The notes under the pieces were generated by a model. It had not been told where the DNA came from and searched no databases. It worked only from the letters and a program-made list of their open reading frames with translations. Positions 7,060 to 38,255 of a stretch of 45,296 nucleotides of DNA are shown here, one piece after another. The stretch is taken from positions 1 to 45,296 of the IMG/VR virus record IMGVR_UViG_3300020165_000035; one strand, 5' to 3'. Position 1 is the first letter of the stretch; each line of letters starts with the position of its first letter. This DNA is from a virus. A program made the translations under genes and the position numbers.

Positions 7060-7073
<14 letters not shown>

Positions 7074-8812: not shown

Positions 8813-8813
8813 A

Positions 8814-8821
8814 TATCTATA
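8814..8821 (-). promoter_or_regulatory. Possible variant late promoter (TATAGATA) upstream of the portal gene
   Basis: One mismatch to TATAAATA, intergenic. It lies immediately before the hairpin, which weakens the call. Confidence 0.3.
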
Positions 8822-8827
8822 ACGCTA

Positions 8828-9355
8828 TTAACTAGTTGTATTTGACTCCCAGTATTGAACTGCGAATTCAACGTCGAACTGCTCAATAGTAGTTGCTTGG
8901 TCGTAATCCAAAGCAATAGCACCTACACTGATGGGGAAGCATCCACGAAAAGTGTATTTTTTCAACACAGATTCGTCTCTATCAAGTTGTTCTACAATAA
9001 GATCCGCTTGATAGTCTGCGGGATTAACAAGACCTGTATTAGCAGAATGCGAGTTAATACCATTTATCCATCGTTCGAAAGAATCTCGTGATACAAATCC
9101 TGTATCATTCATGATGGTAACAGTCCAGTTTTCAAAAGTTCTGTCTCCTGCCATCTTGAGTATTCTTCCACGAAATGGAACTTCAATTACACCCGTAGTA
9201 GAAGCAGGTAATTGTGCAGTTCTGCAAAGGAAAGATGTCAGTTCGACATCTCCCCCAGCATATCCCGGAAAGTTCAGTGTAACCTTAAAAAGATTAGCAC
9301 GTGCACCACCACCGGTTAGTTTTGACTTAAAGTCATCGACTCCTAAAATTGCCAT
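8828..9355 (-). CDS. gp19: T4-like tail tube protein
   Basis: DDFKSKLTGGGARANLFKV, EVPFRGRILKMAGDRTFENWTVTIMND, and a C-terminal F.VQYWE. Located between sheath and portal. Confidence 0.96.
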   Translation of the reverse strand: MAILGVDDFKSKLTGGGARANLFKVTLNFPGYAGGDVELTSFLCRTAQLPASTTGVIEVPFRGRILKMAGDRTFENWTVTIMNDTGFVSRDSFERWINGINSHSANTGLVNPADYQADLIVEQLDRDESVLKKYTFRGCFPISVGAIALDYDQATTIEQFDVEFAVQYWESNTTS

Positions 9356-9366
9356 CTAGACTCTCC

Positions 9367-11091: not shown

Positions 11092-11157
11092 AATCGTGTC
11101 CTTTTTTTCGTTTACCTATGATAAGAAAACATAATGCGGTATTAATCTCAATGCTTT

Positions 11158-11165
11158 TATTTATA
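11158..11165 (-). promoter_or_regulatory. T4-type late promoter TATAAATA
   Basis: TATTTATA on + at 11158-11165, between gp17 and gp18. It shares the context AATTGTTATAAATAAAA with the 38876 site. Confidence 0.8.
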
Positions 11166-11176
11166 ACAATTGAGAT

Positions 11177-12808: not shown

Positions 12809-13163
12809 TTTCTATCACCTTTTCATCTTCTACTTTATGTAGCAACCTTTGTAAGTCTGTTGTGCTACCGAGAAATACATTGTTATTGGTGATCTGCTTT
12901 GCTTGATTCTTGCTTGGTTCTAACATTTCTTTTTGTTTCTTATTCAGATCCATCAGTCTATCGTTGACATCAGATATGTTTTTGACCATACCTGATAACA
13001 CTTCAAACGCACGAGGGTGTTCTGATTCACGAGCAACTTCGATCATAAGATCAAGAGACTCTTTACCCTTCTCTATAAGTTCATAGTATGTAGCGCGAGA
13101 GTAATCGTAGTCATACTCTACTTTTTCTTCGGGTGTTTTTTTATCTTTATCGTGGTTTTTCAT
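12780..13163 (-). CDS. gp16: T4-like terminase small subunit
   Basis: DYDYSRATYYELIEKG..SL, ESEHPRAFEVLS, TNNNVFLGSTTDLQ. Overlaps the gp17 start. Confidence 0.92.
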   Translation of the reverse strand: MKNHDKDKKTPEEKVEYDYDYSRATYYELIEKGKESLDLMIEVARESEHPRAFEVLSGMVKNISDVNDRLMDLNKKQKEMLEPSKNQAKQITNNNVFLGSTTDLQRLLHKVEDEKVIEIDSSNSNAE

Positions 13164-22549: not shown

Positions 22550-22557
22550 TATTTATA
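22550..22557 (-). promoter_or_regulatory. T4-type late promoter TATAAATA
   Basis: TATTTATA on + at 22550-22557, overlapping the stop of the 2456-aa gene, 19 nt upstream of gp13. Confidence 0.75.
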
Positions 22558-25500: not shown

Positions 25501-28500
25501 TAAAATATGTTAATGCAGTATGAGCAGTTGTTTCTACTACTGTTGATACTACACTATCTCCGACCAAACCTAATAAAGTTAATTGGTCGTTTACGTTGAA
25601 AGCAGGGGAAAGTTTTAACCCACCCGTCAAAGTCAATTTGTTAGTAGTAGAAGCACCGTGATCTGTTACATATTGTAACGTGGCAATGTCTAGTATATTA
25701 CCAAGAGTTCTATCTACTACACTATCAAGTGCAGTAAGACCTAATATAACAGTATTATCTGATACTGCATCTGATAAATTAGACGTGCCTACCGTTAATC
25801 CACCGGCACCGATGTTTGCCCTATTTGTATTAAGTCTATCATTTGAATAAGTTAGACTGCCATTATCTTCTAACTCACCGTCTGTTCCTGCTAAAACTAT
25901 TCTAGTCGCAGTTAAATCAGATACTTTGGCGGTTCCTAATGTAGCAGAGTCGCCACTGAATCCCAACGCAACTATTGGTCTGGTTGTAACATAACCTTGA
26001 TCGGTAACGTTCTGTAAAGTTGGATCCGAGAAAGCAGAAGCAGATGCTTCGCGGGTTCCTACTGTCCCGTCTGCGGCAATAGTGACAACAGTAAATTCGG
26101 TACCTTGAGCGGTTAGTCCTGTAACAACCAACCCTGCGTTAGTTGCATCAATCGTAGTAGAGTCTAATGTTGTAATACCACCAACATCAAGATCCGTTGT
26201 GACATTAATATTGGTGGCAGTTAATGTGGTATTACTAAACGTTAAGTCAGCATCGTCTTCTAATTCACCATTAGTTCCAGCAATGACCACCCGACCACTG
26301 GTTAAATCTTCTACTTTAACTGATGAAGCTTCGATGCCAGCATTAGCATCAAGTAAACCGTCAATAGTTGTTTTATCGAGAGTAGTTTCTCCCGTTACAT
26401 CAAATCCTCCAACTATCGAAGTTGAGTCTAATGTTGTAATACCATCAACATCAAAATTTTGTTCGATGTTTACGCCTTTGTTAAAGGACCAGTCATCACT
26501 AACCGCATCGTATTGTATTGTTGCTACACCATCCGACCCTAACGAAAGTGTTATACCGCCTCCGTCAGCATCTTCTTTTTGAGTAGAACCGTCTGCAATC
26601 GTGATATTAATATCATCAACAGAAAGTTCTGTGGAGTTGACAGTAGTGGTTCCACCTTCGACTCTGAGGTTCCCTAATACTACAAGTTCTTGTCTTACGG
26701 TGACAGAATCAAGTGAGGATATACCCGAGACATCAAAATTTGCAACTAAGTTTAAATTAGTTCCATCGAAAGTGAAGTTGGCATCGTCTTCTAATTCACC
26801 AGAAGTTCCTGCGATCACTACCCGATTATCTGTCAGATCGCTCACTGCTGCACTTGCTAATGTTGCTTGGGTGCCAACACTCAAATTAGTCGCAAAGGTA
26901 GCACTATCGGCAGTTATCGCAGAAGTGCCGCCTAAAAGAATATCTAAATTCGAAGTATTACCAACTGTCAATACTTCGTTTAATCCCAAAGCAGACCCAT
27001 CAAGGATTGAACCATCAACTTCTAAAAATTCTACACTGTCTCCCGATGCACCTGATCCGAGATTCAACAGTTTATATGTTGCTTGTGTGTCCGTTGCGTT
27101 TGCTGCGAGAGAGATACCACCATTTAAATACAATGGTGTTGAGGTGACATCATATCCAACAGGTCTCGTAGGATCTGTGACAGTAGTTAATGTTTCGCCT
27201 GTAAAAGCAGTAGATTCAATTGTTCTTCGAGCAACTTCATTAGAACCATCGATTGTTAATACATCTAATGATTCAGTACCTATCAGTCCAGTTAGATTAA
27301 CCGCTCCTACTATCGTGGTAGAGTCTAATGTTGTAATACCACCAACATCAAGTGTACCTACTATTGAAGTTGAGTCTAATGTTGTAATACCATCTACGTT
27401 AAGATTTACACCAACTTGAAGTGCTGTTCCATCGAAAGTAAAATTAGCATCGTCTTCGAGTTCGCCATTAGTTCCAGCAATGACCACCCGACCACTGGTT
27501 AAATCTTCTACTTTAACTGATGAAGCATCAATTCCAGCATTAGCATCAAGTAAACCGTCAATAGTTGTTTTATCGAGAGTAGTTTCTCCCGTTATATCAA
27601 GTGTACCTACTATTGAAGTAGAATCAAGATTCGTTACTCCCTCGACATCAAGGTTGTTGAGTACGTTTAAATCACCATCCGCATCAATTCTTAACCGCTC
27701 TAAATTTCCGGTGAAGAACGACATTGGTTTGGCACTGATACCTCTGAAATTTACCGCACCACTTTCAGTTGTAATTTCTAATACGGTATTATCACCTGTG
27801 TTATCCAGACGTAAAGACACTGGAGTTGTTCGTTCAATCTCCAGTCCTCGTCCACTAAAAAAGGTGGGTGTGCTTGTTCCCATACCAAAGTTTGCTTCGG
27901 CGTTGGAAATTTCGCCATGAAAAAGTGCACCATTCAGATAGACATCGTCGCCATCGACAACGAGTCTTCCGTTAATTGTGGTGGAGTCTAATGTGGTGAG
28001 ACCATCTACGTTAAGATTTACACCAACTTGAAGTGATGTTCCGTCGAAAGTAAGATTAGCATCGTCTTCGAGTTCGCCAGCAGCACCAGAGAACACTACA
28101 CGATCCGTGGTCAAGTCTGTAACGCTTGCGCTTGCAAGAGTTGCCTGAGTAGTTGCTTCTAGGTTTTGGACGGTAGCACTATCCCCCACAAAACCTTGCG
28201 CGATAATTTCTAACGTAGTAGTTCTTCCGCGCTCGGTTGCGGTTTGAAGTGTTGTGTCATCACCGTCCAAGACTTGGTTGTCGAGTTCTCGGAGAATTAC
28301 CTGTCCTTCGCCAGAAGATTTATCGTAGACTAAGAACCTATTAACAGTCTCAGAAGAACCCATTACATCGGAATCTATACGGAGACCAACGCCTATACCA
28401 TCGATGGTCAAACCGCCGACATGTAATGATCTGTTAGTGCTATCACCAAACCCTGAAGCAGAACCAGCATCTACTTGATCGGTTACAGTTTGTAAAGTAT

Positions 28501-29923
28501 CTAATTCGGTGCCCGTAAAAGCAATTGTGTTAAGATTAACGAAACCTACCGAATCATTATCCTGAATAACTAAGACACGATCTTGGTTGCCGTTTCTATT
28601 AGTTTTGTTAGATAGTAATACGTCACCGTTCAAACTAACCTTGCGAGCAGTAGTATCGCCCTTACCTACAACGTAATCAAGAGTTACCAGATCGCCATTG
28701 AAAGCAATATCATCTGCAAGTCGTTTTGCTACAATCGCACTATCACCGCTCGCGGCAAGTTCTGCTACCAGAACATAATTCCCTACGCCATTGGCAAGCG
28801 TCAATCCGGTACCGTTGCCCCGAAGTTTTATGCTGTTACTGAATATTACTGGGTTTCCAGTTTCACCAGCTTCGAACCCATCTTCTGTTCTTCCCGAAAC
28901 ACTGTGTAATGTTTCAAAAGTGGTGTCGAGATTTTCAACCTCAATATCTACAACTTCATATTCTTTTGAGGTTTCGTTCCACGTGACCATTGGAATAAGA
29001 CCAGATGCCGGTAGTGTCGCAACAGTTGGATTTAATACATCAAGTTGCCCAACTCTGATATTACTATTGGTGCTATCGTAAAAAGCAAGATCTCTTAGTG
29101 ACCTGACACCTATTGAATCGTCTATACCATCAATTACCAATGCGTTTCTGTGTGTTACAAAATTGCCTCTTGTTTTAGGTTGTTCGTTGAATTGAAAAAA
29201 CTTAGCATTTAAACCGTATGTGGTAACCGCACCTTTCTGGAAAGAAGAGGTTTGATCGCCCGAAGAAATTGTTTCTTCTACTACTTGTTGTAAAGTAGGT
29301 GCAGTAAAATTAGTAAAATCGAAATTAGTAAAACCGACACTATCCTCTGCACCTTTTACCAGAAGCAGAGTAGATTGAATGCCCTGTATACCAGATACAT
29401 TTACAAGTGAGTTAAGATTTACTTGTCCATCAAATTTTGCCAAACCATCGATTTCCATCGAGTTAGCATCTTCAATTTTTAATCCATAACTGTTAGGAGA
29501 ACTTCCTTCCACACTGCCAAGAGTTTGAATTACAATACCTTGATCAGTAGTGCTTCCAGTAACGGTGACCGTCTGTAACGTAATTTCACTTTCATCGGTG
29601 AAAGCAAGATCACCTAACTTACGATAACCAACGCTATCTGCGTCAGAAGAGGTCGTAGGGTTTCCATTAAGAATTAATGCGTAATCATTATCACCAGCAT
29701 CATTAAGTTCACCATCATCAAACGCAAGACCCTCAAGTTGAGGTCTTTTAGTGAACCCACGAGTACCATCCGCATTGGAAAAGAACAGCGAGTTATCACT
29801 CGCTGGATTACCGGGATTCGGTTCTGCTTGTTCAAGAGACAGGTAAGTATAACGATCATCATCTAACTCATCATTAGATCTCCGAACTATCTTACCACTT
29901 AACGATATGAGTCTTTTAGCCAT
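22553..29923 (-). CDS. Very long repetitive fibre protein (2456 aa) in the gp12/wac syntenic slot upstream of gp13
   Basis: Multiple internal repeat families (TLQxVTxxG, VDGxTTLDSTxI, ELEDDANxTFDG), T/G/D/V-rich composition, and position directly before the neck genes. Confidence 0.75.
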   Translation of the reverse strand: MAKRLISLSGKIVRRSNDELDDDRYTYLSLEQAEPNPGNPASDNSLFFSNADGTRGFTKRPQLEGLAFDDGELNDAGDNDYALILNGNPTTSSDADSVGYRKLGDLAFTDESEITLQTVTVTGSTTDQGIVIQTLGSVEGSSPNSYGLKIEDANSMEIDGLAKFDGQVNLNSLVNVSGIQGIQSTLLLVKGAEDSVGFTNFDFTNFTAPTLQQVVEETISSGDQTSSFQKGAVTTYGLNAKFFQFNEQPKTRGNFVTHRNALVIDGIDDSIGVRSLRDLAFYDSTNSNIRVGQLDVLNPTVATLPASGLIPMVTWNETSKEYEVVDIEVENLDTTFETLHSVSGRTEDGFEAGETGNPVIFSNSIKLRGNGTGLTLANGVGNYVLVAELAASGDSAIVAKRLADDIAFNGDLVTLDYVVGKGDTTARKVSLNGDVLLSNKTNRNGNQDRVLVIQDNDSVGFVNLNTIAFTGTELDTLQTVTDQVDAGSASGFGDSTNRSLHVGGLTIDGIGVGLRIDSDVMGSSETVNRFLVYDKSSGEGQVILRELDNQVLDGDDTTLQTATERGRTTTLEIIAQGFVGDSATVQNLEATTQATLASASVTDLTTDRVVFSGAAGELEDDANLTFDGTSLQVGVNLNVDGLTTLDSTTINGRLVVDGDDVYLNGALFHGEISNAEANFGMGTSTPTFFSGRGLEIERTTPVSLRLDNTGDNTVLEITTESGAVNFRGISAKPMSFFTGNLERLRIDADGDLNVLNNLDVEGVTNLDSTSIVGTLDITGETTLDKTTIDGLLDANAGIDASSVKVEDLTSGRVVIAGTNGELEDDANFTFDGTALQVGVNLNVDGITTLDSTSIVGTLDVGGITTLDSTTIVGAVNLTGLIGTESLDVLTIDGSNEVARRTIESTAFTGETLTTVTDPTRPVGYDVTSTPLYLNGGISLAANATDTQATYKLLNLGSGASGDSVEFLEVDGSILDGSALGLNEVLTVGNTSNLDILLGGTSAITADSATFATNLSVGTQATLASAAVSDLTDNRVVIAGTSGELEDDANFTFDGTNLNLVANFDVSGISSLDSVTVRQELVVLGNLRVEGGTTTVNSTELSVDDINITIADGSTQKEDADGGGITLSLGSDGVATIQYDAVSDDWSFNKGVNIEQNFDVDGITTLDSTSIVGGFDVTGETTLDKTTIDGLLDANAGIEASSVKVEDLTSGRVVIAGTNGELEDDADLTFSNTTLTATNINVTTDLDVGGITTLDSTTIDATNAGLVVTGLTAQGTEFTVVTIAADGTVGTREASASAFSDPTLQNVTDQGYVTTRPIVALGFSGDSATLGTAKVSDLTATRIVLAGTDGELEDNGSLTYSNDRLNTNRANIGAGGLTVGTSNLSDAVSDNTVILGLTALDSVVDRTLGNILDIATLQYVTDHGASTTNKLTLTGGLKLSPAFNVNDQLTLLGLVGDSVVSTVVETTAHTALTYFTLDQAALTGSNTLNQQIDVTSALDLDGGFTASLTTDTPAVPTGAFDVIKLADVGGTDSAFRVTLQSGAVKPAEDYTWSFVLNNSPLSGINQPYFQNGLLIDRDNLPSTTNYSTSLIVPVFNTTGTLDSVGYRTLGTAANLAQTDITLDFVTGNQQVLIGSENYASTTNNIKIGKLIAGVPEFTGSVYAPVGDGNALFIGPQDSVGYRDVGAFAFRDQVTLQEVTNWGDSTTAEITMDALKLAGNTITILNNLPAISTDDALMYDSVSNQVGYRTLSDAAFLNPTLQIVTDEGDSTSSKIVTSGGLVLRGPGTPIISNPNATDPEQSNFLQMLVINTDTDSVKRGNISNITNVVVNKDLNDVTTYGSSISQDGIDSTSIAVNFKGDFYLGGLGDLNTIDTIIGIDTTTGQLYRRSVSSISGEVSLHDAVSVGDKTSSEAAFGGVRLRLGDVAFSDGLGFSGDYPEVLSVVGPAAGRQTKLTTDIAVISDSAYVSTLLRAQEIRTFDTLTIDKPPTLGGPALYIKDNGPTINFNHYNTNLEDSAIYQWGGNGSRFSLTHQQPGVSNAQYGIWYERNNQRMGFANDWTGFPAFPNFTDKSRVLIDWSGPVGDSALKLQQGMGLQVDGITTLDSTAIDAGSFGNGLTIPNLGTQTTNTDVLTINGDVVSKTAFSDMYDVPSLQSVTDVGSTTTNDIEISDNYLSVVNTDGSYAFRANVGVDTFKVNNITPVISKTGIVGDDATNAALQIHRHGANALGPYLFLSKNRGTNLLNPAIVVSGDNLGTIAFGGNDGTVASIPGAEIKVIAEGTQSAGDIAATMNFYNYSSGVKTQTMSVALDSVRVDGQFSVFHDTVGADVQINKTSQIPIQIHNNKTAAWNASGWKSVIETKMFSTDTTIHRHFINTLDASGGAGDTVTYNSQLFDISGTIQSYSFQTESTFGFDIGGLKMSLDANKMQLQTGVQLQDAAGANLVIYDSAGDVLWGNV
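26271..26397. repeat. 127-nt intragenic duplication, copy 1 (copy 2 at 27468-27594)
   Basis: Aligned by eye: 124/127 identical, offset 1197 nt (in frame). Confidence 0.85.
27372..27467. repeat. 96-nt intragenic duplication (partner at 27984-28079)
   Basis: Encodes GELEDDANxTFDGTxLQVGVNLNVDGxTTLD. About 6 mismatches between copies, by eye. Confidence 0.8.
27468..27594. repeat. 127-nt intragenic duplication, copy 2
   Basis: Matches 26271-26397 with 3 mismatches. Confidence 0.85.
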
Positions 29924-30287
29924 TTAACGATTCCAAGAAACTTAATGTCAGTTGGAGTTTACCCGCCGACTCTGCCCAAATTGCGATTTGGTTTCCTTCT
30001 TGCACAATCAATTTTCCTGTTAAAGAACCAACAGCATCGAATGCTTGACATGCAAAATCTTTTACTAGAAATGTAGTTGTATCTGTTCCCGCATCGTGAT
30101 GAACAAAATTAAAATCCCACGTCTGAGTATTATCTATATTGGTAATCTGTGCCATCAAAACAATTGCCGTGATGCCAGCAGGGACCGTGTATACTACATC
30201 TGTACCACGTGCTTTGATGGCATCAGTAGGATCTTTTGCCTGTATGATATAGGTTTTAGTTTTAAATGTATTTAATGGAGTTGCCAT
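29916..30287 (-). CDS. Small beta-rich virion protein (123 aa)
   Basis: MATPLNTFKTK...VYTVPAGITAIVLMAQITN. Tightly packed between the two giant fibre genes and overlapping the next start. Confidence 0.7.
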   Translation of the reverse strand: MATPLNTFKTKTYIIQAKDPTDAIKARGTDVVYTVPAGITAIVLMAQITNIDNTQTWDFNFVHHDAGTDTTTFLVKDFACQAFDAVGSLTGKLIVQEGNQIAIWAESAGKLQLTLSFLESLNG

Positions 30288-30288: not shown

Positions 30289-33200
30289 TTATCCCTCTAA
30301 TGCTAGAATATAAGGTGTTAATACTGCGAACAAAGATCTATCGAAAGTCGTCCCTGTAATTGTTCCCGACTCACGGTTGATGGTTAAATCGCCACCAATT
30401 CGGAAGTCGCCTAATTCGTCTGTTGCTGTAAAGTAAACCAAACCAAAGTTAGGTTGTGCTGCATCCGCAGAATCAAAAACTACTTCTAAATCTTTCTTAG
30501 GAATACCACCGTTTTGTGGAACCGCCGCAAACATGTTAGTACCGGATCCCACAAATTCAAAGGTGTGAGAAGAAGCACTAATCAAAGATCTTTGATGAAA
30601 GTTCGATGTTTGTTCCCCTTTCATGTTTTTATTTAGGGGCGGAGCAATCGTTATATCGTAAGAACCTGTCTCTGGAAGGATAGAACTGTAAGTAAATGCT
30701 GCACCCCGGTAAGGAATGGATACGTCAGCAGTTCGCTCTGGTGCGCTAATAGCAAGATAGTCTGCACTTCCTCCAACTGCAACCCCTTCACCAAACCTGT
30801 CATCATTAAAGCTGGCATTAGTATCACCATTGAATTGTCGGTTTTGAGGTCTAAGAATATTAACCTCAGTCCAATTAGTGCCACCACGTTCGAATATATA
30901 TGCCCCAACAGTGTCGTTCGCAACTTCTGAGGCACTACTTCTGTTCGCTCCGACTACTACAATATCACCTTTATCATTGATATCAATAGAACGTCCCATC
31001 CTAGTACCTTCTCTACCATCAGAAGGATACAGAGTTTCTTGATGCGTCCAATTACCTTCTTTAAAAGCAAACATGTCTACGCCACCAGTCTCATCGGTGT
31101 AACCAAAGACATAGTTTGAACCGTCCCATGTACCAATATTAGGTGAACTAATGGTTAATTGATTTGATGCTGGAATATTAATAACAGTAGTCCCATCTGT
31201 CAAGTTAGCATCTCTGTCTTCATAGTTTGCATTTTCAAATGATCCAGAATATAAAGTTTGTCCGATTGTAAATTTTTCTGCACTATCGACTAAAATATTT
31301 GACACGCCTACACTAGATGCTTGTGCGCGAGAGACAACCGTATTACCCGAAGTAGGATTAGCAAATGCCGCATATGTAGCATCAGGATTCATTGCCACGA
31401 TGTGATCAGAGATCGTTCCATTATTTTGAAACTGTGGTAAACTAATGTTCTGCGAGATACTGTAAGTTCCGAATTGATTCTTAGTATAGTAGTATGCAAC
31501 ATCTCCTCTCCAAGCAGCAAGTATACTACCACCGTCATTGCTTATTGCCGTCGAAGGAGCAAAAGAAGCAGTTCCTTTGGGGAAGAGTAATTTCTGGGCA
31601 AAGGTGAACCCATCAGGGTCTAATGCGGAGTCTCTGTTAAAAACGTGAATCGCACCGCTAATAAAGTTTGTGTCAGAATCAAATTTATTAGAAATACAAA
31701 TAGTATTCCCGTCACCCGATATTGATGTTCTCTTTCCAAATTGTCTGGTTTGTCCATTTTTAGTAGGAGACGATGATACTGAATCTTCGAGGAAATGGGT
31801 TTGCGACCAAGTAGAACCATCCTTCTCGAAAACATAAGCAGCACCATGCAAGGTAGTCGTGTCACTATAACCTGTAACATATCGTGCATTCTCTGCACCG
31901 GTAACAACTACTTTGCCGTCAGCACTTATTCCGGATTGTTCTGGCGCATAACCAAAAGAACTTCCCGTCCCATTGTTTATTGGGTTAACAGGGGCGATAG
32001 ACTGAACAAACTGCCAAGTCTTAGATCCTTCTGCTCGTTCCCAAAACTCTTGATATGATGCGTCTCTATTTGCCCAAGTAAGTGTAGTGTCATCGCTCGA
32101 CATAGCAATACCAGCACTGTGATAATTCCCTCTGGGCGTGTCACCGGTTTCGTATACGATCTGATCAGTGTTACCACTAACACCCCAGTTCTGCAAAATC
32201 TCATCGGACACATCTAAAACGGTGTAGTAGTAATTATCGGAATCAAATTTAATCGCATCATTATAATTAGGTTTCTTAAAATCACCTAATTGTAAAGAGT
32301 AATTTGCGGCATCGGTGTTTGTGATTCCGTTGATACGAATAATGTCATCATTCAAATTGTAATCGGCATGTAAAGAACCATTGTAAATTGATTCGGAACC
32401 ACCGGTTGAAACCAAACCACGGTCACCAAAAGAAGAGTTCGAGTTCGTAACAGAACATTGCCCACCCGTTTCAGCAAGAATAGATGTTGAGGTAGAAATC
32501 GTGAAACAAGACACTAACTGAGCATATGCACGATTGGTTAAGTGAACACCAATACCGTCTGCATTAAACTGTGTGAACGCATCAAGCACCATTGATCGTA
32601 GACCAGACACCTTAGAACCATCGATCTTCATACCAATACCCGATGTTGTCAACGAAGTACAGTTTTGTACATATGGTGATTGGGTAATGAACGGACCTGT
32701 GATCGCATCGTTTCTCGGATCGAATGCTACACAAGCAGCACCGTTCTGATGGTCGCGGAAAGTAACCTCTTTCACATAACAACCATTGTCAACCCAGAAA
32801 ATATCACTATCTACATTACGTGGGCGAATTGTAGTTGCCCTCAAAGCATCACCAATGATAGAAGTCTTAGGTGGGAGTTTGATCGGATTGTTAACAGTGT
32901 AGTCACCAGACTTCAAAAAGATAGTAGTATCGGTCCCTTGGTTCTGAGCAGTCTCGGATGACTGACGAATAATAGTCTGTCTTTCTGGTGTCGGGACACT
33001 ACTTAAAGTAATGCCCTGCTCGAACTTAGACCATGCGGTATAGATCTCGGGTGTTGTCGTAGAAATCCCTATACTAACAAGGTCTGGAAACACTAACGAA
33101 TCGTAACCTACTGCAAGTCCTGTCGGGTAGTTGTATTGGTAGATAGCAGTTCCGTTAAAGAAATCACCTAATTGGAAAGTTCCTATACTAGATTGCTCAA

Positions 33201-36200
33201 CAGCATGAATAATAATATCTAAGAGGTTTTGGATCTTAGTAATATTACCTGAATCTGTTCCTGCCGTATAACCCGCAATAATAGATTTTAACTGTTCGTA
33301 TGCTGCAATCGTTGCAGTCAGTTCACTTTGACCAAGTCGATCAGCATAACCATTACCAAAGATAGAGAAGTATGCTCGCATCGCAATAGAGGTTGCGCTG
33401 TTACCACCGTACTTGAGATCATAGGTCAACGCATCCAGAATGTATCCCACGTCTCTGCGACAAGTTGCCTGATCGTAAGAGTATGTTGGGAAAACGCTAT
33501 TGGCATAAAATACTACTTGCTCTTGTAACGTAGATCTGATAGCATGAAAAGTACTGCTCTCGCCAGTGAAAGTAGGCACAACAACAGGAATTGCTGATCC
33601 ATCTGCGGCATTGATTGCGTCTCTAATCCTTTCGATTAAAGCAACAACCCGAGCTTCTTCCGTAGAAGTCGTGACGTAATTATTAATGATAGTTTTTAAC
33701 TGTTCGTATGCAGCAAGTGAGGCGGTAATTTCACCGGCACCTAATTGATTAGTCCAGATGTCTGCGAGACCATCTAAACTTTCGTATGCAGTTGTGGTGT
33801 TCTCGATGTTAAGGTCTTTACCGACCCAGTATGAACGAGCATTGGTATCAGTAGCAAAAGAACCGTCGAAAAGAATATCGTGAGTCACGGCATCTACAAT
33901 GTATCCAACGTCTCTTTGACACTTGTCTTGATCGTATTCTAACGAATCGAAATTGTTTTGAATCCAAGTGATCAACTGACCCTGAATGGTTCTTCGATTA
34001 ACGATCAGAGCGTTTGCTGCATTTCTCTTATCGGCACTCTCACTTCCAGTTCCGGTAAAGTCGATAGAGGTTCCGTCTTCTTTTCCGTATGCGGTGGACT
34101 CTTCAAGGAGTTCAGTGATCTGTTTGATACGTGCCGTAACGAAAGTCTGACTTGTTGCGTTAATACCAGATGCGTTGATCTGGTCTCGCAAGTAATTGAT
34201 AGAATCGATTGTGTATTGTAATTGATCGCTCTGAACTTTTTGTGCATTACCTCTTTGGTATGCGAGTCCAGCAGTGATGCTATTATAGTCTGTATTGTTC
34301 TGTAAGTCAAGAGCAATCGCATCAATTATTAAACCGGTGTCTCGTTCACACTTGTGTTGATCGAAACTGCCTACAATGTTTTGATCATTTACATAGTCGA
34401 TGACATCGTTCTGAATGATCAATCTGTTTGCAACGATGGCATCAAAATCTGTTGTTGTCAATCCCGCAGTATCCACTTCTACTTCCGCAGGAATACTATC
34501 GGTATTACCAGCAGTAATAACGCCAGTGACCAGACCCATGAGTTCATCAACTCTTGCATTTTCAGAAGTATAATTCTTAATCTCTCCTGCAAGAAAATTG
34601 TACGCCGCAACTGTAGGTGCGGTTTCTCCTGAACCTAACTGGGAATTTGTTCCTGCAAAATATGAAAGTGCAGCATTACGAGAGGCGGTGTTACCGCCAT
34701 ACAACAAATCAATATTTATTGCATCAATTACGAATCCTGTATCTCTTTCGCACTTGGCTTGATCATATGCCAGTCCAGAATAGTTAGCAGTAATGAAGTT
34801 AGTAGTTGCTGTGATCAAAGCACTTCTCTGTGATCGTATAGTTCCGTGGTCTATATCTCTAAACTGTGAAGATGCATACGTTCCGTTTGCGGGATAAGTA
34901 GCATAGGTTTGAACTGTTGTTACGGTTCCATCAAGAACATCTATCACACGTTCAAACAACGTGTCTACCGTTGCATCAAGTGCGCCAACTAATGCTTTAA
35001 CTTTTGACTTGGCAAAATTAACAGCATCAATAGTTGCTTGTTTCTGATCGCTCAACACATAAGCAGTATTTGCTCTTAGGTATGAATTACCTGCCGCAAT
35101 TGTCCAAAAATCTGATCCAAGTAAAAGATCACGTGCAACAGCATCAAGGATTAATCCAACGTCTCTTGCACACTTACCGGCATTATATCCACCAAGTTTA
35201 GTGGACCAATTCAGATCAACATAGTCAATCGTGGCAGCCTGAGCACCTACGATTCCTGCAACGATAGCATCATATTCGGTAGTAATCAATCCAGTAGTAA
35301 CGATATTTACTTCTGCGGAAAGACCCGTGGTATTACCCGCCGTGATAACACCGGTGATTTCATCCACAAGTCCACCAAGAACTGTTTGTTCCGGAGCAGT
35401 CGTAACCACTGCGTTAATCCGTGTTTTAAGATCATTGTATGCCGCAACAGTTGCAGTGCCTTCTCCGAAACCTAACTGAGATACTGTACCTGAGAAATAT
35501 GCCAGAGCATTTGTGCGAGTCGCAGTGTTACCACCATACTTGACATCATGGGATAAACCGTCTATGATATAACCAACATCTCTTTCACATTTTGCTTGAT
35601 CGTAACCAAGACCTGGATAGTTGGCATTGATGTAAACCGTGGTATCAGAAATTAATGTTGCACGATTTGCTTGAAGATTCGTAGTTGCCGCAATTCGATC
35701 TGCCGTCTGGTATGTTGCCCCTGCCGTAGTCACATAGTTGATTGTTGGGTAAACCGTTTGCGTTGCGTTAATGACATCGGTAACATTCTTGAAAAGGTTT
35801 TCGATGTCAGTATCGGAAGTAACACCAGCAAGAGCAATAATGTAATCTCTCGCAAAGTTGATACCCGCAATAGTTGCTTCGTTCTGATCGCTCAATACAT
35901 AAGCAGAGGAAGACCTATTGTATGCCCAACCAGCAGTAATCGTATTGTAGTCAGTGCCTAATAATAGATCACGTGCAACCGCGTTGACAATTAGACCGAC
36001 ATCCCGAGAACAAGTTGTCGCATCGTATGACCCTGTGAGGAAATCGTTTGCGGGGTTGTTCAGGTAATCTAGGACCGCATCCTGAATTGCTTCTTTGTTA
36101 GTCTGAATAGCATTAGATGCTGCATTCGCGTCAGTCTGTGCTTCGACAGGTGGATCAGGAAACTCTAATGCAGAGGCAGTGCCGCCCACAAGAATCTCAA

Positions 36201-36753
36201 TGATCTCATCGAAACCAGAAGCAACACGTAGTTTAGAAGTCGCGTCAGTTTTTACTGCGGGAACAGAAACCATACCGAGACGTTCTTCGTTGATTGCTCG
36301 TCTAGTCTGATAGAGTTGTTCTGCGGTAACTTTAATCGCGTTACCACGCTTATACGATTGTCCAGCAGTTACCGCACCATAGTTTGTGCCTAATGCCATG
36401 TCATAACGAACACCATCCATAATAAGGTTAAGGTCTCGTTCACATGTAGTTTCGTCAAACTTGAAGTTTTCTTTTGCATATACAACTGCTACTGCCGAAT
36501 CCAAAGAGGAGAAAGCATTCATCAAAGATTTGCCATCATTTCCAGGAACGCCCGACTTAGAAACATAATAGACGTTATCTACATCTTCGGCACCAATTGA
36601 ATTGATACTGACTTCGCCGTTCTTGTCTTTCTTAATATACGCTTTACCATCGTGCGTATTGATTGCAATCTCGCCGAAGTCTATTTCATTAAGAGTCGGA
36701 GCACGTCCTGGTATGTCGCTGCGCGGAAATAATATTTTTTTTCTGGATGCCAT
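30289..36753 (-). CDS. Giant multidomain virion protein (2154 aa): Mtd_N-like N-terminus, eight CxRD helical repeats, parallel beta-helix, FG-GAP-like propeller, C-terminal domain
   Basis: N-terminal ILFPRSDIPGRAP...GEIAINTHDGK. CxRD repeats at aa 104-1098. TIFLKSGDY..NNPIKLPPKTSIIGDALR and SPYVQNCTS beta-helix motifs. Repeated FGxxVxIS/GAxYVF blades at about aa 1525-2025. Confidence 0.8.
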   Translation of the reverse strand: MASRKKILFPRSDIPGRAPTLNEIDFGEIAINTHDGKAYIKKDKNGEVSINSIGAEDVDNVYYVSKSGVPGNDGKSLMNAFSSLDSAVAVVYAKENFKFDETTCERDLNLIMDGVRYDMALGTNYGAVTAGQSYKRGNAIKVTAEQLYQTRRAINEERLGMVSVPAVKTDATSKLRVASGFDEIIEILVGGTASALEFPDPPVEAQTDANAASNAIQTNKEAIQDAVLDYLNNPANDFLTGSYDATTCSRDVGLIVNAVARDLLLGTDYNTITAGWAYNRSSSAYVLSDQNEATIAGINFARDYIIALAGVTSDTDIENLFKNVTDVINATQTVYPTINYVTTAGATYQTADRIAATTNLQANRATLISDTTVYINANYPGLGYDQAKCERDVGYIIDGLSHDVKYGGNTATRTNALAYFSGTVSQLGFGEGTATVAAYNDLKTRINAVVTTAPEQTVLGGLVDEITGVITAGNTTGLSAEVNIVTTGLITTEYDAIVAGIVGAQAATIDYVDLNWSTKLGGYNAGKCARDVGLILDAVARDLLLGSDFWTIAAGNSYLRANTAYVLSDQKQATIDAVNFAKSKVKALVGALDATVDTLFERVIDVLDGTVTTVQTYATYPANGTYASSQFRDIDHGTIRSQRSALITATTNFITANYSGLAYDQAKCERDTGFVIDAINIDLLYGGNTASRNAALSYFAGTNSQLGSGETAPTVAAYNFLAGEIKNYTSENARVDELMGLVTGVITAGNTDSIPAEVEVDTAGLTTTDFDAIVANRLIIQNDVIDYVNDQNIVGSFDQHKCERDTGLIIDAIALDLQNNTDYNSITAGLAYQRGNAQKVQSDQLQYTIDSINYLRDQINASGINATSQTFVTARIKQITELLEESTAYGKEDGTSIDFTGTGSESADKRNAANALIVNRRTIQGQLITWIQNNFDSLEYDQDKCQRDVGYIVDAVTHDILFDGSFATDTNARSYWVGKDLNIENTTTAYESLDGLADIWTNQLGAGEITASLAAYEQLKTIINNYVTTSTEEARVVALIERIRDAINAADGSAIPVVVPTFTGESSTFHAIRSTLQEQVVFYANSVFPTYSYDQATCRRDVGYILDALTYDLKYGGNSATSIAMRAYFSIFGNGYADRLGQSELTATIAAYEQLKSIIAGYTAGTDSGNITKIQNLLDIIIHAVEQSSIGTFQLGDFFNGTAIYQYNYPTGLAVGYDSLVFPDLVSIGISTTTPEIYTAWSKFEQGITLSSVPTPERQTIIRQSSETAQNQGTDTTIFLKSGDYTVNNPIKLPPKTSIIGDALRATTIRPRNVDSDIFWVDNGCYVKEVTFRDHQNGAACVAFDPRNDAITGPFITQSPYVQNCTSLTTSGIGMKIDGSKVSGLRSMVLDAFTQFNADGIGVHLTNRAYAQLVSCFTISTSTSILAETGGQCSVTNSNSSFGDRGLVSTGGSESIYNGSLHADYNLNDDIIRINGITNTDAANYSLQLGDFKKPNYNDAIKFDSDNYYYTVLDVSDEILQNWGVSGNTDQIVYETGDTPRGNYHSAGIAMSSDDTTLTWANRDASYQEFWERAEGSKTWQFVQSIAPVNPINNGTGSSFGYAPEQSGISADGKVVVTGAENARYVTGYSDTTTLHGAAYVFEKDGSTWSQTHFLEDSVSSSPTKNGQTRQFGKRTSISGDGNTICISNKFDSDTNFISGAIHVFNRDSALDPDGFTFAQKLLFPKGTASFAPSTAISNDGGSILAAWRGDVAYYYTKNQFGTYSISQNISLPQFQNNGTISDHIVAMNPDATYAAFANPTSGNTVVSRAQASSVGVSNILVDSAEKFTIGQTLYSGSFENANYEDRDANLTDGTTVINIPASNQLTISSPNIGTWDGSNYVFGYTDETGGVDMFAFKEGNWTHQETLYPSDGREGTRMGRSIDINDKGDIVVVGANRSSASEVANDTVGAYIFERGGTNWTEVNILRPQNRQFNGDTNASFNDDRFGEGVAVGGSADYLAISAPERTADVSIPYRGAAFTYSSILPETGSYDITIAPPLNKNMKGEQTSNFHQRSLISASSHTFEFVGSGTNMFAAVPQNGGIPKKDLEVVFDSADAAQPNFGLVYFTATDELGDFRIGGDLTINRESGTITGTTFDRSLFAVLTPYILALEG
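33154..36471 (-). repeat. Eight tandem ~140-aa alpha-helical repeats with an invariant Cys-x-Arg-Asp
   Basis: Cys codons checked at 36444, 36012, 35589, 35172, 34752, 34350, 33921 and 33462 (aa 104, 248, 389, 528, 668, 802, 945, 1098). Spacing is 134-153 aa. Confidence 0.9.
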
Positions 36754-36779: not shown

Positions 36780-38255
36780 TTAGGCGTATGTGCCACAGTC
36801 GATTACTTCAAATTCAAGCGATTGGGCATATATCTTGGGTGAAAATTCCCATCGTGCCGAATCGACTCCGTTGTTTGCATAACGAGCATACGCATAGGGA
36901 GATGCTGAATCTCCTATCGCAATACCGGCACCGTTAGCGAGAACAGCGGTTGGTGTTCCATTCGCAATAACAATCTGTTGATCTTCTACTAATAATTCTG
37001 TTGTTGAGATATTAGTCTGTTCGCCGTAAACAAAGAGATTTCTATTTACTATCAAGTCACCATCAATTGTGGTAGAGTCTAATGTCGTAAGACCATCTAC
37101 ATTAAAATCGACATCTACTTGAACATTCTGTTTGAAGGTTGCGCTTGCTGAATCAAACGTTGCAAGCAATGGGAAAGACGGTCCACCATTCCTAAATTCT
37201 ATTGCACCATTATCATCATCTGAGTATAGAACAACTTTTTGATTTGCTGTTTGAGTTCCTAGTTCTATTGCCCCGCCTTGACTTAATTCAAGTCGTGCCC
37301 TAGTTGATTGAATACCCCCACTTCTAAATTCAAGTGATTTATTATAAGTAACAAGACTAATTGACCCGCCTTCTGTTAACTCTTGCAATCGGATTTCTGA
37401 TCCAGGATTACCTTCTGGTCTGAATATTAATCCTCGATCATTAAAGGTAGGTCCAGTTGAACCATTTATAATTAACAAAGGGTCAATCGTAGTTGAGTCT
37501 AATGTTGTAAGACCATCTACGTTGAGATCTTCATTGATCTGTAAAATATCAAACGTTGCTGAGTCGAGGATGGCTTGTCTTACATGAAGAGTTCTCCATC
37601 TCTGCAAAGCAGTTCCGAGGTCATACGTATCTGTGATATTGGGTATAAGAGAAGAATTAATATCTGCACCGAAAACAACGTTATCGGTGTTCTGATCACC
37701 CACCGTAATCGTTCCGGAAGTTCCTGCTTTCAAGGTCGCTATACCATCAACAGTTAGAGTACCATCGATTTGTACGTTCTGTGTGACCTGCAGGTCGCCT
37801 GTGACCTTGGTTAAACCAGTGCCACCACGTAACACTAGGTCATTTGTTGCTTCTGTTGATACAGAGTCTTTGTTAAAATATAAAAAATCTACAAGAAGTT
37901 CGTTGAGTTTTTTATCGTCATCTACCAAAAGAGAGGATGCAGCAGTAACAATACCGCGCTGATGATTCATCATGTCGGTGAAATATTTACCGCCGATAGT
38001 ATGAATCTCAGACGAATAGTAATGCGATACCGAGTCGCCTTGGGAGTTTACATCTGGTTCATATAATATGTTACCAGCACCAATATAAAGACGATCACCG
38101 CCATTACCCAAACCGTCATCGTTAGTATCTGCTAATAAAGAATATGCTATCTCAGAAACTTGTATTAACGATTTTCCAGTACCATCTTCTACTGGCAGAC
38201 CCCTAGTTGTCGAGCGTCTTATTAATATTGTGGCATGAGAAGAATCGTGGGACAT
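36780..38255 (-). CDS. Fibre-like virion protein (491 aa) with an Mtd_N-like N-terminus and VDGLTTLDSTTI repeats
   Basis: ILIRRSTTRG.P...EIAYS...GNGGDRLYIG N-terminus. Shares the VDGxTTLDSTTI motif with the 2456-aa protein. C-terminal IDCGTY. Confidence 0.7.
   Translation of the reverse strand: MSHDSSHATILIRRSTTRGLPVEDGTGKSLIQVSEIAYSLLADTNDDGLGNGGDRLYIGAGNILYEPDVNSQGDSVSHYYSSEIHTIGGKYFTDMMNHQRGIVTAASSLLVDDDKKLNELLVDFLYFNKDSVSTEATNDLVLRGGTGLTKVTGDLQVTQNVQIDGTLTVDGIATLKAGTSGTITVGDQNTDNVVFGADINSSLIPNITDTYDLGTALQRWRTLHVRQAILDSATFDILQINEDLNVDGLTTLDSTTIDPLLIINGSTGPTFNDRGLIFRPEGNPGSEIRLQELTEGGSISLVTYNKSLEFRSGGIQSTRARLELSQGGAIELGTQTANQKVVLYSDDDNGAIEFRNGGPSFPLLATFDSASATFKQNVQVDVDFNVDGLTTLDSTTIDGDLIVNRNLFVYGEQTNISTTELLVEDQQIVIANGTPTAVLANGAGIAIGDSASPYAYARYANNGVDSARWEFSPKIYAQSLEFEVIDCGTYA

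What the first reader, a model, noticed from the sequence alone, without database searches (positions are those of the whole stretch)
33154..36471. Eight tandem phycobiliprotein-like globin repeats, each keeping the bilin-attachment Cys-x-Arg-Asp, in a virion protein
Seen: eight repeats 134-153 aa apart (e.g. NLQANRATLISDTTVYINANYPGLGYDQAKCERDVGYIIDGLSHDVKYGG; YNAGKCARDVGLILDAVARDLLLG; YDQDKCQRDVGYIVDAVTHD). They roughly alternate between two subtypes, and these Cys are the only cysteines in aa 1-1270. Established: phycobiliproteins have a globin fold and attach bilin to Cys84 in the C-x-R-D motif of helix E (alpha-phycocyanin KCARDIGYYLR.V.Y...GG, allophycocyanin L..NR.RI...A.TCLRD), with Arg86 and Asp87 contacting the chromophore. 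The downstream helices here (TIAGINFARDYI...IENLFKNVTDVIN) also match the spacing of helices G and H (YIEALKYIK...YLDYAINAL). Some marine T4-like phages encode bilin synthesis and attachment genes (ho1, pcyA, pebS, pcyX, cpeT). Inference: the virion may display up to eight covalently bound bilins per chain, making a pigmented particle for UV or oxidative protection, light sensing or host-antenna mimicry. That could give phage bilin pathways a virion substrate. Alternative: the same fold class occurs in colicin pore-forming domains, so the repeats might insert into membranes. I am not aware of a description of this, and a literature check is needed.
Basis: partly seen in the sequence, partly recalled or inferred. 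Interest (0 to 1): 0.92.

Follow-up and report, generated by a model that had tools for sequence, protein, structure and literature searches.

The report
Phycobiliprotein-like domain array in phage fibre
A giant tail-fibre protein of a marine T4-like phage carries eight tandem copies of the pigment-binding fold of cyanobacterial antenna proteins, each keeping the pigment-attachment motif, and the same phage genome encodes enzymes that make such pigments, so the particle may carry pigment, although attachment has not been shown.

Summary
The 2154-aa ORF at window 30289-36753 (-) has eight 134-153-aa repeats. Each has one C-x-R-D, and these are the only cysteines before aa 1325.

The fold claim also holds. 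Pfam PF00502 passes its cut-off, and a 76-unit profile hits almost only phycocyanins in the PDB, with Cys aligned on Cys84. The AlphaFold model (pLDDT 93.5) matches phycobiliproteins best (Z 16.3, against 7.6 for colicins). The units lack the phycobiliprotein X-Y hairpin.

The array is inserted into the N-terminal cap of a beta-helix fibre protein. The domain family is large: at least 1560 clusters and up to 37 units per protein. Among 50,697 phage records it is found only in cyanophages.

A 170-kb contig that is 99.9% identical to the window carries a coupled heme oxygenase and PcyA/PcyX-like bilin reductase cassette.

Bilin attachment itself is untested, and co-occurrence with bilin genes across phages is imperfect. 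The host of this phage is unresolved.

I found no paper describing this. The scan has noted the same kind of array on other genomes.

The parts
30289..36753 (-). Giant fibre gene, 2154 aa (P0001)
   Evidence: ORF. It matches PHROG tail-fibre families phrog_5342 (E 3.5e-83), phrog_17885 and phrog_4527. It lies in the late structural module between the neck/gp15 genes and the baseplate genes.
36580..36753 (-). N-terminal segment, aa 1-58
   Evidence: Conserved across the orthologues in alignment A3. Its role as an attachment segment is inferred, not tested.
36481..36579 (-). First half of the beta-helix N-cap (aa 59-91, NVYYVSKSG...LDSAVAV). It overlaps the start of unit R1.
   Evidence: It aligns with the contiguous cap of relatives P0115 and P0067 with scores of 80-92, against shuffles of 25 +/- 5. 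P0115 aa 88-145 matches DUF1565 and PF12708.
36148..36579 (-). Unit R1 (aa 59-202, subtype A). Cys104 codon at 36442-36444.
35725..36147 (-). Unit R2 (aa 203-343, subtype A). Cys248 codon at 36010-36012.
   Evidence: All-helical in the 4-domain model.
35308..35724 (-). Unit R3 (aa 344-482, subtype B). Cys389 codon at 35587-35589. This is the unit that was modelled.
   Evidence: PF00502 match at aa 346-455. AF2 pLDDT 93.5, pTM 0.88. Foldseek and VIA-align top hits are all phycobiliproteins.
34888..35307 (-). Unit R4 (aa 483-622, subtype A). Cys528 codon at 35170-35172.
34486..34887 (-). Unit R5 (aa 623-756, subtype B). Cys668 codon at 34750-34752.
34057..34485 (-). Unit R6 (aa 757-899, subtype A). 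Cys802 codon at 34348-34350.
33598..34056 (-). Unit R7 (aa 900-1052, subtype B, with a 21-residue insert after helix E). Cys945 codon at 33919-33921.
33130..33597 (-). Unit R8 (aa 1053-1208, subtype B). Cys1098 codon at 33460-33462.
31654..32931 (-). Resumed beta-helix body (aa ~1275-1700, starting TTIFLKSGDY...GDALR)
   Evidence: It aligns with the second half of the contiguous cap of P0115 and P0067 with scores of 133-137, against shuffles of 25 +/- 5. PF12708 profile positions 22-72 match at aa 1259-1313. phrog_17885 matches at aa 1356-1472.
30694..31653 (-). FG-GAP-type repeat region (aa ~1700-2020)
   Evidence: PF14312 at aa 1902-1954, E 2.7e-08, above its cut-off.
30295..30687 (-). Conserved C-terminal domain (aa 2023-2153)
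   Evidence: phrog_5342 and phrog_3442 matches at the C-terminus. Nearly invariant in the orthologues.
29916..30287 (-). 123-aa gene immediately downstream. Its start overlaps the next giant gene.
   Evidence: phrog_1276, function unknown. It is syntenic in all 10 contigs listed.
36780..38255 (-). 491-aa gene immediately upstream
   Evidence: phrog_15769, function unknown. Syntenic in the contigs.

Best explanation
Each repeat is a bilin-binding-globin domain of the phycobiliprotein/BBAG clade. It consists of the globin core (helices A, B, E, F, G, H) without the X-Y hairpin that joins alpha and beta subunits.

Eight such domains form a roughly 1185-aa array that loops out of the N-terminal cap of a beta-helix fibre protein and returns to it. 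The two ends of the array must therefore sit side by side.

Most likely mechanism (inferred):
- While the fibre folds in the infected cell, each domain binds one linear tetrapyrrole in the cleft beside helix E.
- Each domain then fixes the tetrapyrrole to its single Cys by a thioether bond.
- Arg(+2), Asp(+3) and Lys(-1) hold the propionates and pyrrole nitrogens, as in phycocyanin Cys84.
- Attachment is possibly lyase-free, as in BBAGs and ApcE.
- The bilin would come from the phage's own coupled heme oxygenase/FDBR cassette, or from the host in cyanophages.

The fibre would then carry 8 chromophores per chain. The most plausible use is light sensing at the adsorption apparatus.

Shown here: the repeats, the fold, the homology, the motif conservation, the insertion topology, the virion context, and the bilin genes in the same genome.

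Inferred: ligand binding, covalent attachment, and function.
For: Homology to phycobiliproteins:
- PF00502 scores 25.5 bits against a cut-off of 22.2.
- In the 8-unit profile search, the top 4 PDB hits are phycobiliproteins.
- In the 76-unit profile search, 30 of 32 hits are phycobiliproteins, all in one register with Cys on Cys84. The best E-value is 0.0024.
- The AF2 model has pLDDT 93.5.
- All 40 Foldseek rows shown but one ('Bacterial fluorescent protein') carry phycobiliprotein or phycobilisome titles, TM 0.60-0.75.
- VIA-align gives Z 16.3, 14.9 and 14.5 for allophycocyanin, ApcE and another phycobilisome chain. Globin sensors score about 12 and colicins 7.6.
- The top Atlas row is a phycocyanin beta cluster, TM 0.77.

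A ligand-site signature rather than a spacer signature:
- In 64 non-redundant units at about 21% mean identity, the invariant residues are C46, D49 and D60. R48 is kept in 61 of 64, Y76 in 63 of 64 and K45 in 38 of 64.
- C46, D49, I53, A56 and D60 fall on one face of helix E (helical periodicity).
- The motif is kept in 19 of 19 units of L007 and 31 of 34 units of L008.

Precedent: every characterised CXRD globin of this clade binds bilin, and BBAG-1 and BBAG-3 do so without lyases (PMC10151467).

Supply of bilin:
- Contig ERZ10646569:contig_27735 (170,429 bp) is 99.90% identical to window 1-13,060.
- It carries an exact window protein.
- It also carries heme oxygenase (195 aa) overlapping (ATGA) an FDBR (191 aa here; 227 aa in 5 of the 7 contigs shown).
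- This cassette lies about 49 kb from the fibre gene.

Relatives of this phage without the domain also lack HO and FDBR.
Against:
- Co-occurrence is not general. S-PM2 has 9 units but no HO or FDBR. Pelagiphage Mosig has HO and FDBR but no domain. P-SSM2 has HO but no domain.
- In the 9 fairly complete genomes examined, the domain and HO are not associated.
- Arrays of up to 37 units look more like a length or spacer module than a sensor.
- The HO-FDBR cassette is about 49 kb from the fibre gene, not clustered with it.
- No T-type lyase (PF06206) appears in the Pfam lists of the roughly 123 kb of this genome that was inspected.
- No report of coloured cyanophage particles was found. By my estimate, about 150 bilins per virion would give A550/A260 below 0.01, so colour could easily be missed.
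Confidence: 0.45

Rival explanations
1. The domains are purely architectural. A phycobiliprotein/BBAG-type globin was co-opted as a compact helical bead to build fibres of variable length. The domains carry no ligand, and C-x-R-D plus D60 and Y76 persist as a buried polar network needed for folding.
For: - Copy number varies from 2 to 37 per protein, as it does for Ig-like spacer domains.
- The 4-domain model has confident domains but pTM of only 0.52, as expected for beads on a string.
- The domain occurs in different structural proteins, including fibre, 'short tail fibre' and gp7-like wedge proteins.
- Domain presence does not track bilin genes across phages.
Against: - A structural role does not explain why a lone Cys is invariant in 64 of 64 units when almost nothing else is. 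Ser or Ala would normally substitute.
- Invariant buried acidic residues on the face that holds the bilin in relatives point to a ligand.
- All characterised CXRD members of the clade bind bilin.
Confidence: 0.35
2. The conserved Cys serves another chemistry. It could form inter-domain or inter-chain disulphides that staple the array after release into oxic seawater. With four A-type and four B-type units, the eight Cys could give four pairs. Alternatively it could bind a metal or a non-bilin ligand.
For: - There is exactly one Cys per unit and an even number of units.
- There are four A-type and four B-type units.
- The array ends are forced together by the insertion topology.
Against: - Relatives have odd numbers of units, for example 19 in L007.
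- Arg and Asp at +2 and +3, and Lys at -1, are not needed for a disulphide, but they are the bilin contacts in phycobiliproteins.
- No conserved His or second Cys is present for a metal site.
Confidence: 0.12
3. The repeats act like colicin pore-forming domains and insert into the host membrane.
For: Colicin S4 and colicin N appear in the fold search at Z 7.6 and 7.3.
Against: - These scores are far below those for phycobiliproteins (Z 14-16.3), and below the level the tool calls common for helical proteins.
- All sequence-level signals point to phycobiliproteins.
- The conserved residues are polar, not a hydrophobic hairpin.
Confidence: 0.02
4. The domains mimic the host antenna, docking onto or competing with host phycobilisome components.
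For: Among cultured phages the domain is found only in cyanophages.
Against: - Phycobilisomes are intracellular, whereas fibres act outside the cell.
- The X-Y hairpin needed for alpha-beta assembly is absent.
- This phage may not infect cyanobacteria at all.
Confidence: 0.03

Closest known systems
Phycobiliprotein alpha/beta subunits (Pfam PF00502), e.g. C-phycocyanin alpha, allophycocyanin
   Same: - Both have the globin-like core fold (Z up to 16.3, TM 0.60-0.77).
- The K-C-x-R-D-x-G-Y motif on helix E is in the same register as Cys84.
- The G-G turn after helix E is shared.
   Different: - The phage units have no X-Y N-terminal hairpin. About 45 residues precede the Cys, compared with 83 in phycobiliproteins.
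- The units are about 140 aa, compared with 160-175 aa.
- The position equivalent to Arg93 is Asp.
- There is an extra invariant Asp at +14 from the Cys.
- The units occur as covalently linked tandem arrays in a virion protein, not as free subunits in (alpha-beta)3 discs.
- Chromophore binding is unproven.
BBAGs, bilin biosynthesis-associated globins (BBAG-1/BBAG-3; Rockwell et al. 2023, PMC10151467)
   Same: - Both are phycobiliprotein paralogues outside the antenna and carry the CXRD motif.
- Both are encoded in genomes that also carry HO plus a PcyA-type FDBR.
- BBAGs self-attach bilins without lyases, which is the mechanism proposed here.
   Different: - BBAGs are single-domain cellular proteins clustered with their HO and FDBR genes. 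Here the domains are tandem, sit inside a fibre, and lie about 49 kb from the cassette.
- I had no BBAG sequences, so the phylogenetic position relative to BBAGs was not tested.
Phycobiliprotein-like domain of the core-membrane linker ApcE
   Same: - It is a phycobiliprotein-type domain embedded in a large multidomain protein.
- The structural match is strong (4xxi_A Z 14.9; 7eyd, 9wg7 and 7sc7 chains Z 13.7-14.0).
- By established knowledge, ApcE attaches its bilin autocatalytically.
   Different: ApcE has one such domain, uses a differently placed Cys, and works inside the phycobilisome core.
Photoglobins/photocobilins (bilin- and B12-binding globin photoreceptors, e.g. 8j2w)
   Same: It has a bilin-binding globin fold used for light sensing rather than light harvesting (Z 12.3).
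   Different: - That lineage lacks the CXRD motif, according to PMC10151467.
- It is fused to a B12 domain, not arranged in arrays.
Repeated spacer domains of phage fibres (Ig-like, collagen-like)
   Same: Both show variable copy number in giant virion proteins of the same phages.
   Different: Those folds are beta-rich or triple-helical and have no invariant ligand-type motif.

Membership tests
Phycobiliprotein (PF00502) | Sequence match above Pfam's gathering score | tested here: met
   The whole protein scores 25.5 bits against a cut-off of 22.2, E 1.4e-05. This is marginal: unit R3 alone scores 19.2 bits and the other units give no hit. Many relatives also carry precomputed PF00502 hits.
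Phycobiliprotein (PF00502) | Globin-like helical core (helices A, B, E, F, G, H) | tested here: met
   AF2 pLDDT 93.5, six helices. VIA-align Z 16.3, rmsd 3.4 over 124 residues to 8or7_A. Foldseek TM 0.60-0.75 to phycobiliprotein and phycobilisome chains in all but one of the rows shown.
Phycobiliprotein (PF00502) | Cys-x-Arg-Asp attachment motif on helix E at the Cys84 position | tested here: met
   Present in all 8 units. HMMER aligns it on K-C-A/V-R-D of phycocyanin alpha. C and D are invariant and R is kept in 61 of 64 units.
Phycobiliprotein (PF00502) | N-terminal X-Y helix hairpin that forms the alpha-beta monomer | tested here: not met
   Model residues 1-128 align to phycobiliprotein residues about 25-159. 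Only about 45 residues precede the Cys, and the next unit follows after a short linker.
Phycobiliprotein (PF00502) | Covalently bound bilin | not testable with these tools
   This needs expression with bilin synthesis genes or virion mass spectrometry.
Phycobiliprotein (PF00502) | Assembly into (alpha-beta)3 discs | not testable with these tools
   No informative computation was available. Absence of the X-Y hairpin argues against canonical assembly.
BBAG (bilin biosynthesis-associated globins) | Phycobiliprotein-paralogue globin with CXRD (BBAG-1/3 type) | tested here: inconclusive
   The fold and motif are met. Placement in a tree with BBAGs was not possible because I held no BBAG sequences.
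BBAG (bilin biosynthesis-associated globins) | Genomic association with heme oxygenase and a PcyA-type FDBR | tested here: inconclusive
   HO and FDBR are in the same 170-kb genome but about 49 kb away, not clustered. The association is not general across phages.
BBAG (bilin biosynthesis-associated globins) | Lyase-independent bilin binding | not testable with these tools
   Requires an experiment.
Phage tail fibre / beta-helix fibre protein | Match to fibre families and position in the late structural module | tested here: met
   phrog_5342 at 3.5e-83, phrog_17885 at 4e-74 and phrog_4527 at 4.5e-66. Neighbours are neck, gp15, sheath, portal and baseplate genes.
Phage tail fibre / beta-helix fibre protein | Contiguous DUF1565/PF12708-type N-terminal cap | tested here: not met
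   The cap is split. Its first half is at aa 59-91 and its second half at aa 1275-1320, while it is contiguous in P0115 and P0067. The array is therefore an insertion.
Colicin pore-forming domain | Closest structural match and a buried hydrophobic helical hairpin | tested here: inconclusive
   Colicins S4 and N score Z 7.6 and 7.3, well below phycobiliproteins. The hydrophobic hairpin was not examined separately.

The most novel reading that the evidence does not exclude
The CXRD globin arrays are virion-borne bilin photoreceptors. Fibres and baseplate proteins of marine T4-like phages would carry covalently bound bilins that gate adsorption by light.

This reading would explain two open puzzles together:
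- Why some cyanomyoviruses adsorb only in the light, independently of host photosynthesis.
- Why phages, including ones that probably infect heterotrophs, carry hemO-pcyX/pcyA cassettes with no known acceptor protein.

In the small sample testable here:
- P-HM1, P-HM2 and S-PM2 adsorb only in the light and have the domain.
- P-SSM2 and P-SSP7 adsorb in the dark and lack it.
Probability: 0.15. Interest if true: 0.95.

Novelty: new variant of a known kind. Interest (0 to 1): 0.85.

Why it matters
Two questions have stood open in marine phage biology.

First, the role of phage bilin-synthesis genes is unexplained.
- It 'remains a mystery' according to PMC3037559.
- For hemO-pcyA/X in phages of non-phototrophs, 'we can only speculate' (PMC11480375).

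Second, the cause of light-dependent adsorption of cyanomyoviruses is unknown.

A large and so far undescribed family of phycobiliprotein-type domains with intact attachment motifs, located in the adsorption apparatus, gives both questions a concrete candidate that is cheap to test.

If bilins are attached, this would be the first pigment-bearing virus particle and the first viral photoreceptor. It would also be a new source of small, self-contained bilin-binding modules.

If they are not attached, it is still a clear case of a pigment-binding fold recruited as a building block for virion fibres.

Tried and rejected
- Homotrimer test. Complex prediction with three copies of aa 203-482 gave 'no answer' (score 0.00). 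This is not evidence either way.
- Rigid rod test. The 4-domain AF2 model gave pTM 0.52, so no defined arrangement can be claimed.
- The search for related loci with the unit alignment failed because there was no conserved stretch to search with.
- Megablast of the region against phages found nothing.
- The language-model search of the Atlas gave no usable hit.
- Stand-alone single-domain homologues. Only 7 short proteins were found. Most lie on contigs under 5 kb and look like fragments, and none is named.
- A2 profile against 25 IMG/VR contigs carrying a related FDBR. There were no hits, but 24 are at most 35% complete and one is 53% complete, so this is uninformative.
- psbA was sought in fragments of related phages. 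It was absent, but that is uninformative for fragments.
- The C-terminal 946 aa against PDB sequences gave no hit.
- Literature searches for a prior description found nothing relevant.
- The PhiCpeT paper (PMC5336146) is not held. A search for 'C48C1' found nothing relevant.
- The colicin and antenna-mimicry readings were considered and set aside (see rival explanations).
- Canonical (alpha-beta)3 disc stacking was considered and dropped once the X-Y hairpin proved absent.

Full report
**1. The observation**

The flagged stretch lies on the minus strand inside a single 2154-aa ORF, window 30289-36753.
- C-x-R-D occurs eight times, at aa 104, 248, 389, 528, 668, 802, 945 and 1098, spaced 134-153 aa apart.
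- These are the only cysteines before aa 1325.
- None of 20,000 shuffles of the protein gave more than three such motifs.
- Cut around the Cys, the eight units align end to end at 19-49% identity.
- They fall into two subtypes in the order A A B A B A B B.

**2. What the repeat is**

Sequence evidence:
- Pfam's Phycobilisome family (PF00502) matches aa 346-455 at 25.5 bits, above its 22.2-bit cut-off. Unit R3 alone reaches 19.2 bits and the other units give nothing.
- A profile of the eight units, searched against all PDB sequences, returned four phycobiliproteins as its top four hits.
- A profile of 76 units from this and related loci (alignment A2) returned 32 hits, of which 30 were phycobiliproteins. 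All were in one register, with the phage Cys on Cys84 of K-C-A-R-D-I-G-Y.
- Individual E-values are modest (best 0.0024), but the agreement among hits is strong.

Structural evidence:
- AlphaFold2 on unit R3 with A2 gave pLDDT 93.5 and pTM 0.88, with six helices.
- Foldseek against the PDB listed almost only phycobiliprotein or phycobilisome chains (one of the 40 rows shown is a 'Bacterial fluorescent protein'), TM 0.60-0.75.
- The Foldseek-independent VIA-align search gave Z 16.3 for allophycocyanin, 14.9 for the ApcE phycobiliprotein domain and 14.5 for phycoerythrin.
- It then gave 12.3 for photocobilin, about 12 for globin-coupled sensors and 7.3-7.6 for colicins.
- The top ESM-Atlas row is a phycocyanin beta cluster at TM 0.77.
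- The model aligns to phycobiliprotein residues about 25-159. The X-Y hairpin that forms the alpha-beta monomer is therefore missing.

I conclude that the repeats are homologous to the bilin-binding globins (about 95% confidence) but are not complete phycobiliprotein subunits.

**3. The conservation pattern**

In 64 non-redundant units with a mean column identity of about 21%:
- The invariant residues are C46, D49 and D60.
- R48 is kept in 61 of 64 units and Y76 in 63 of 64.
- K45, G51, I53, D55, A56, G64-G65-N66, T69, A72-G73 and T92 are strongly conserved.

By helical periodicity, C46, D49, I53, A56 and D60 share one face of helix E. In phycobiliproteins this is the face that carries the bilin.

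The motif is kept in 19 of 19 units of a 4142-aa relative and 31 of 34 units of a relative longer than 5842 aa.

A lone invariant Cys plus invariant buried acidic residues is what a ligand site looks like. It is not what a spacer looks like.

**4. Architecture**

- The N-terminal cap of the beta-helix is contiguous in relatives P0115 and P0067, where it matches DUF1565 and PF12708.
- In this protein the cap is split. Its first half aligns to aa 59-91 and its second half to aa 1275-1320. The alignment scores are 80-137, against 25 +/- 5 for shuffles.
- The eight-unit array is therefore an insertion of about 1185 aa that leaves the cap and returns to it.
- Downstream of the array come the beta-helix body, FG-GAP repeats (PF14312) and a conserved C-terminal domain.
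- A model of four consecutive units has confident domains but pTM of only 0.52. I therefore claim no fixed arrangement.
- PHROG places the protein in tail-fibre families at E 1e-66 to 1e-83.
- The gene sits among the T4-type portal, tube, sheath, terminase, neck, gp15 and baseplate genes.

**5. Distribution**

- A profile search of 1.84 billion representative proteins found 1560 clusters with the domain. The top 150 listed are large proteins of 844-6382 aa, with up to 37 units in one 6382-aa protein.
- No credible stand-alone single-domain form was found.
- tblastn against 50,697 phage records found 169 records. All but one ('Marine') are named Synechococcus, Prochlorococcus or Cyanophage, although 2409 records carry a T4-type portal.
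- S-PM2 has 9 units in two giant proteins. P-HM1 and P-HM2 have 4 units each, two of them in 'gp7'.
- BFVD matches are cyanophage tail or structural proteins and unnamed uncultured-phage proteins.
- Near-identical DNA occurs in marine metagenomes from 13 studies.

**6. Which phage this is**

- The window is a 45-kb IMG/VR fragment.
- Its portal is 63.7% identical to phage C48C1, 52.8% to Methylophilales phage Melnitz, 51-52.6% to cyanophages and 51.2% to pelagiphage Mosig.
- C48C1 (complete) and three IMG/VR relatives that are 73-85% complete lack psbA, the domain, FDBR and HO.
- The host is therefore unresolved, and the phage lies outside the classical cyanophage clade.

**7. Bilin genes in the same genome**

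- I walked along metagenomic contigs through exact protein matches.
- ENA contig ERZ10646569:contig_27735 (170,429 bp) carries the exact 610-aa protein of window 1226-3058.
- The contig is 99.90% identical to window 1-13,060.
- It also carries a heme oxygenase (195 aa) whose stop overlaps (ATGA) the start of an FDBR. The FDBR is 191 aa on this contig and 227 aa in 5 of the 7 contigs shown.
- The cassette lies about 49 kb from the fibre gene.
- The FDBR is PcyA-like but well below the PcyA equivalog cut-off (74.5 against 206 bits).
- Its nearest cultured relative is the FDBR of pelagiphage Mosig at 38.6% identity. Cyanophage PcyA reaches only 25-26%.
[quoted passage not shown] It adds that their benefit to phages of non-phototrophs is unknown.
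- No psbA appears in the Pfam lists of the roughly 123 kb inspected. About 47 kb was not seen.

**8. How good the link is**

It is suggestive, not general. The table lists the genomes that could be tested.

| Genome | Domain | HO | FDBR |
|---|---|---|---|
| This phage | yes | yes | yes |
| P-HM2 | yes | yes | yes |
| S-PM2 | yes | no | no (it has CpeT) |
| Mosig | no | yes | yes |
| P-SSM2 | no | yes | not tested |
| C48C1 | no | no | no |
| G006, G007, G009 | no | no | no |

- Bilin genes are neither necessary nor sufficient for the domain.
- Cyanobacterial hosts supply bilins themselves, so S-PM2 is not a counter-example to attachment.
- Mosig and P-SSM2 show that the cassettes must have other uses too.

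**9. Precedent for the mechanism**

- Rockwell et al. 2023 (PMC10151467) describe BBAGs, which are phycobiliprotein paralogues in non-photosynthetic bacteria.
- BBAGs are associated with HO and pre-PcyA genes.
- BBAG-1 and BBAG-3 carry CXRD and bind bilins without lyases.
- The phage units match that description except for their tandem, virion-embedded context.
- By established knowledge, ApcE also attaches its bilin autocatalytically.

**10. Possible function**

- Liu et al. 2019 (PMC6628666) report that P-HM1 and P-HM2 do not adsorb in the dark.
- P-SSM2 adsorbs in the dark, though less well than in the light. Podovirus P-SSP7 adsorbs regardless of light.
- They cite earlier work showing that S-PM2 adsorption needs light but not host photosynthesis, and that dim red light has no effect.
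- Here the three light-dependent phages have the domain and the two dark adsorbers lack it.
- With five phages, two of them near-identical, this is a lead and not a result.

**11. Verdict**

- The fold and homology claims are well supported.
- The virion location is well supported by family and context.
- The presence of a bilin pathway in the same genome is shown.
- Covalent chromophore attachment is plausible (about 45%) but untested.
- The main rival is a ligand-free structural bead (about 35%).
- I found no published description.
- First readers of this scan, and one follow-up agent, have noted the same kind of array on other genomes. I checked two of their points here: the beta-helix cap insertion and the two subtypes.

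Noticed in passing
outside the window: L113:3001-4268 (ENA ERZ10646601:contig_20006) and L112:3001-4160 (ERZ10646569:contig_27735): There is a translationally coupled heme oxygenase and PcyA/PcyX-like FDBR cassette in this phage's genome. The FDBR is called at 227, 206 or 191 aa in different contigs of the same population, which could reflect frameshifts or assembly differences.
   Followed up: partly
L157:240-4567 (Pelagibacter phage Mosig, MT647606.1): In Mosig the hemO-FDBR cassette sits directly upstream of the neck genes. It follows a ferrochelatase, a DNA endonuclease V and three 2OG-Fe(II) oxygenase genes, with a fourth oxygenase upstream of the ferrochelatase. No phycobiliprotein-like domain is detectable anywhere in that genome.
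   Followed up: partly
L008:7055-24580 and proteins P0122-P0124: Relatives carry extreme arrays: an ORF of more than 5842 aa with 34 detected units, and proteins of 4799-6382 aa with 31-37 units.
   Followed up: partly
P0257, whose longest carrying contig is 117,713 bp (the length of ERZ10646601:contig_20006): P0257 is a 262-aa fragment only 67% identical to aa 462-701 of the fibre. Its longest carrying contig has the length of a contig whose flanks are 99.9% identical to this phage. The repeat array may therefore vary between otherwise near-identical strains, or the gene may be broken in that assembly.
   Followed up: no
window 18897-20852 (-): A gp15-type tail protein (annotated 'tail sheath stabilizer', phrog_227) is extended by Ig-like (Cadherin_5/Big_9) and Laminin_G_3 domains to 651 aa.
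   Followed up: no
window 5955-7073 (-): A collagen triple-helix repeat protein (PF01391, E 1.8e-28) is encoded right next to the portal gene.
   Followed up: no
window 40828-45294 (-), open at the window end: This is a giant repeat protein with internal repeats of about 640 nt at 74-76% identity and weak LED-repeat matches. It is called at 1950 to 2937 aa in different contigs.
   Followed up: no
window 22553-29923 (-): A 2456-aa protein downstream of the fibre gene has no Pfam or PHROG match at all.
   Followed up: no
window 33154-36471: Two marine metatranscriptome runs hold 74-76% of the sampled words of this stretch. This suggests the gene is transcribed in nature.
   Followed up: no
L011:562-13926 (P-HM2 gp7): In P-HM1 and P-HM2 two CXRD units sit inside the 4454-aa 'gp7 baseplate wedge initiator', not in a fibre. 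The domain is therefore used in several parts of the adsorption apparatus.
   Followed up: partly
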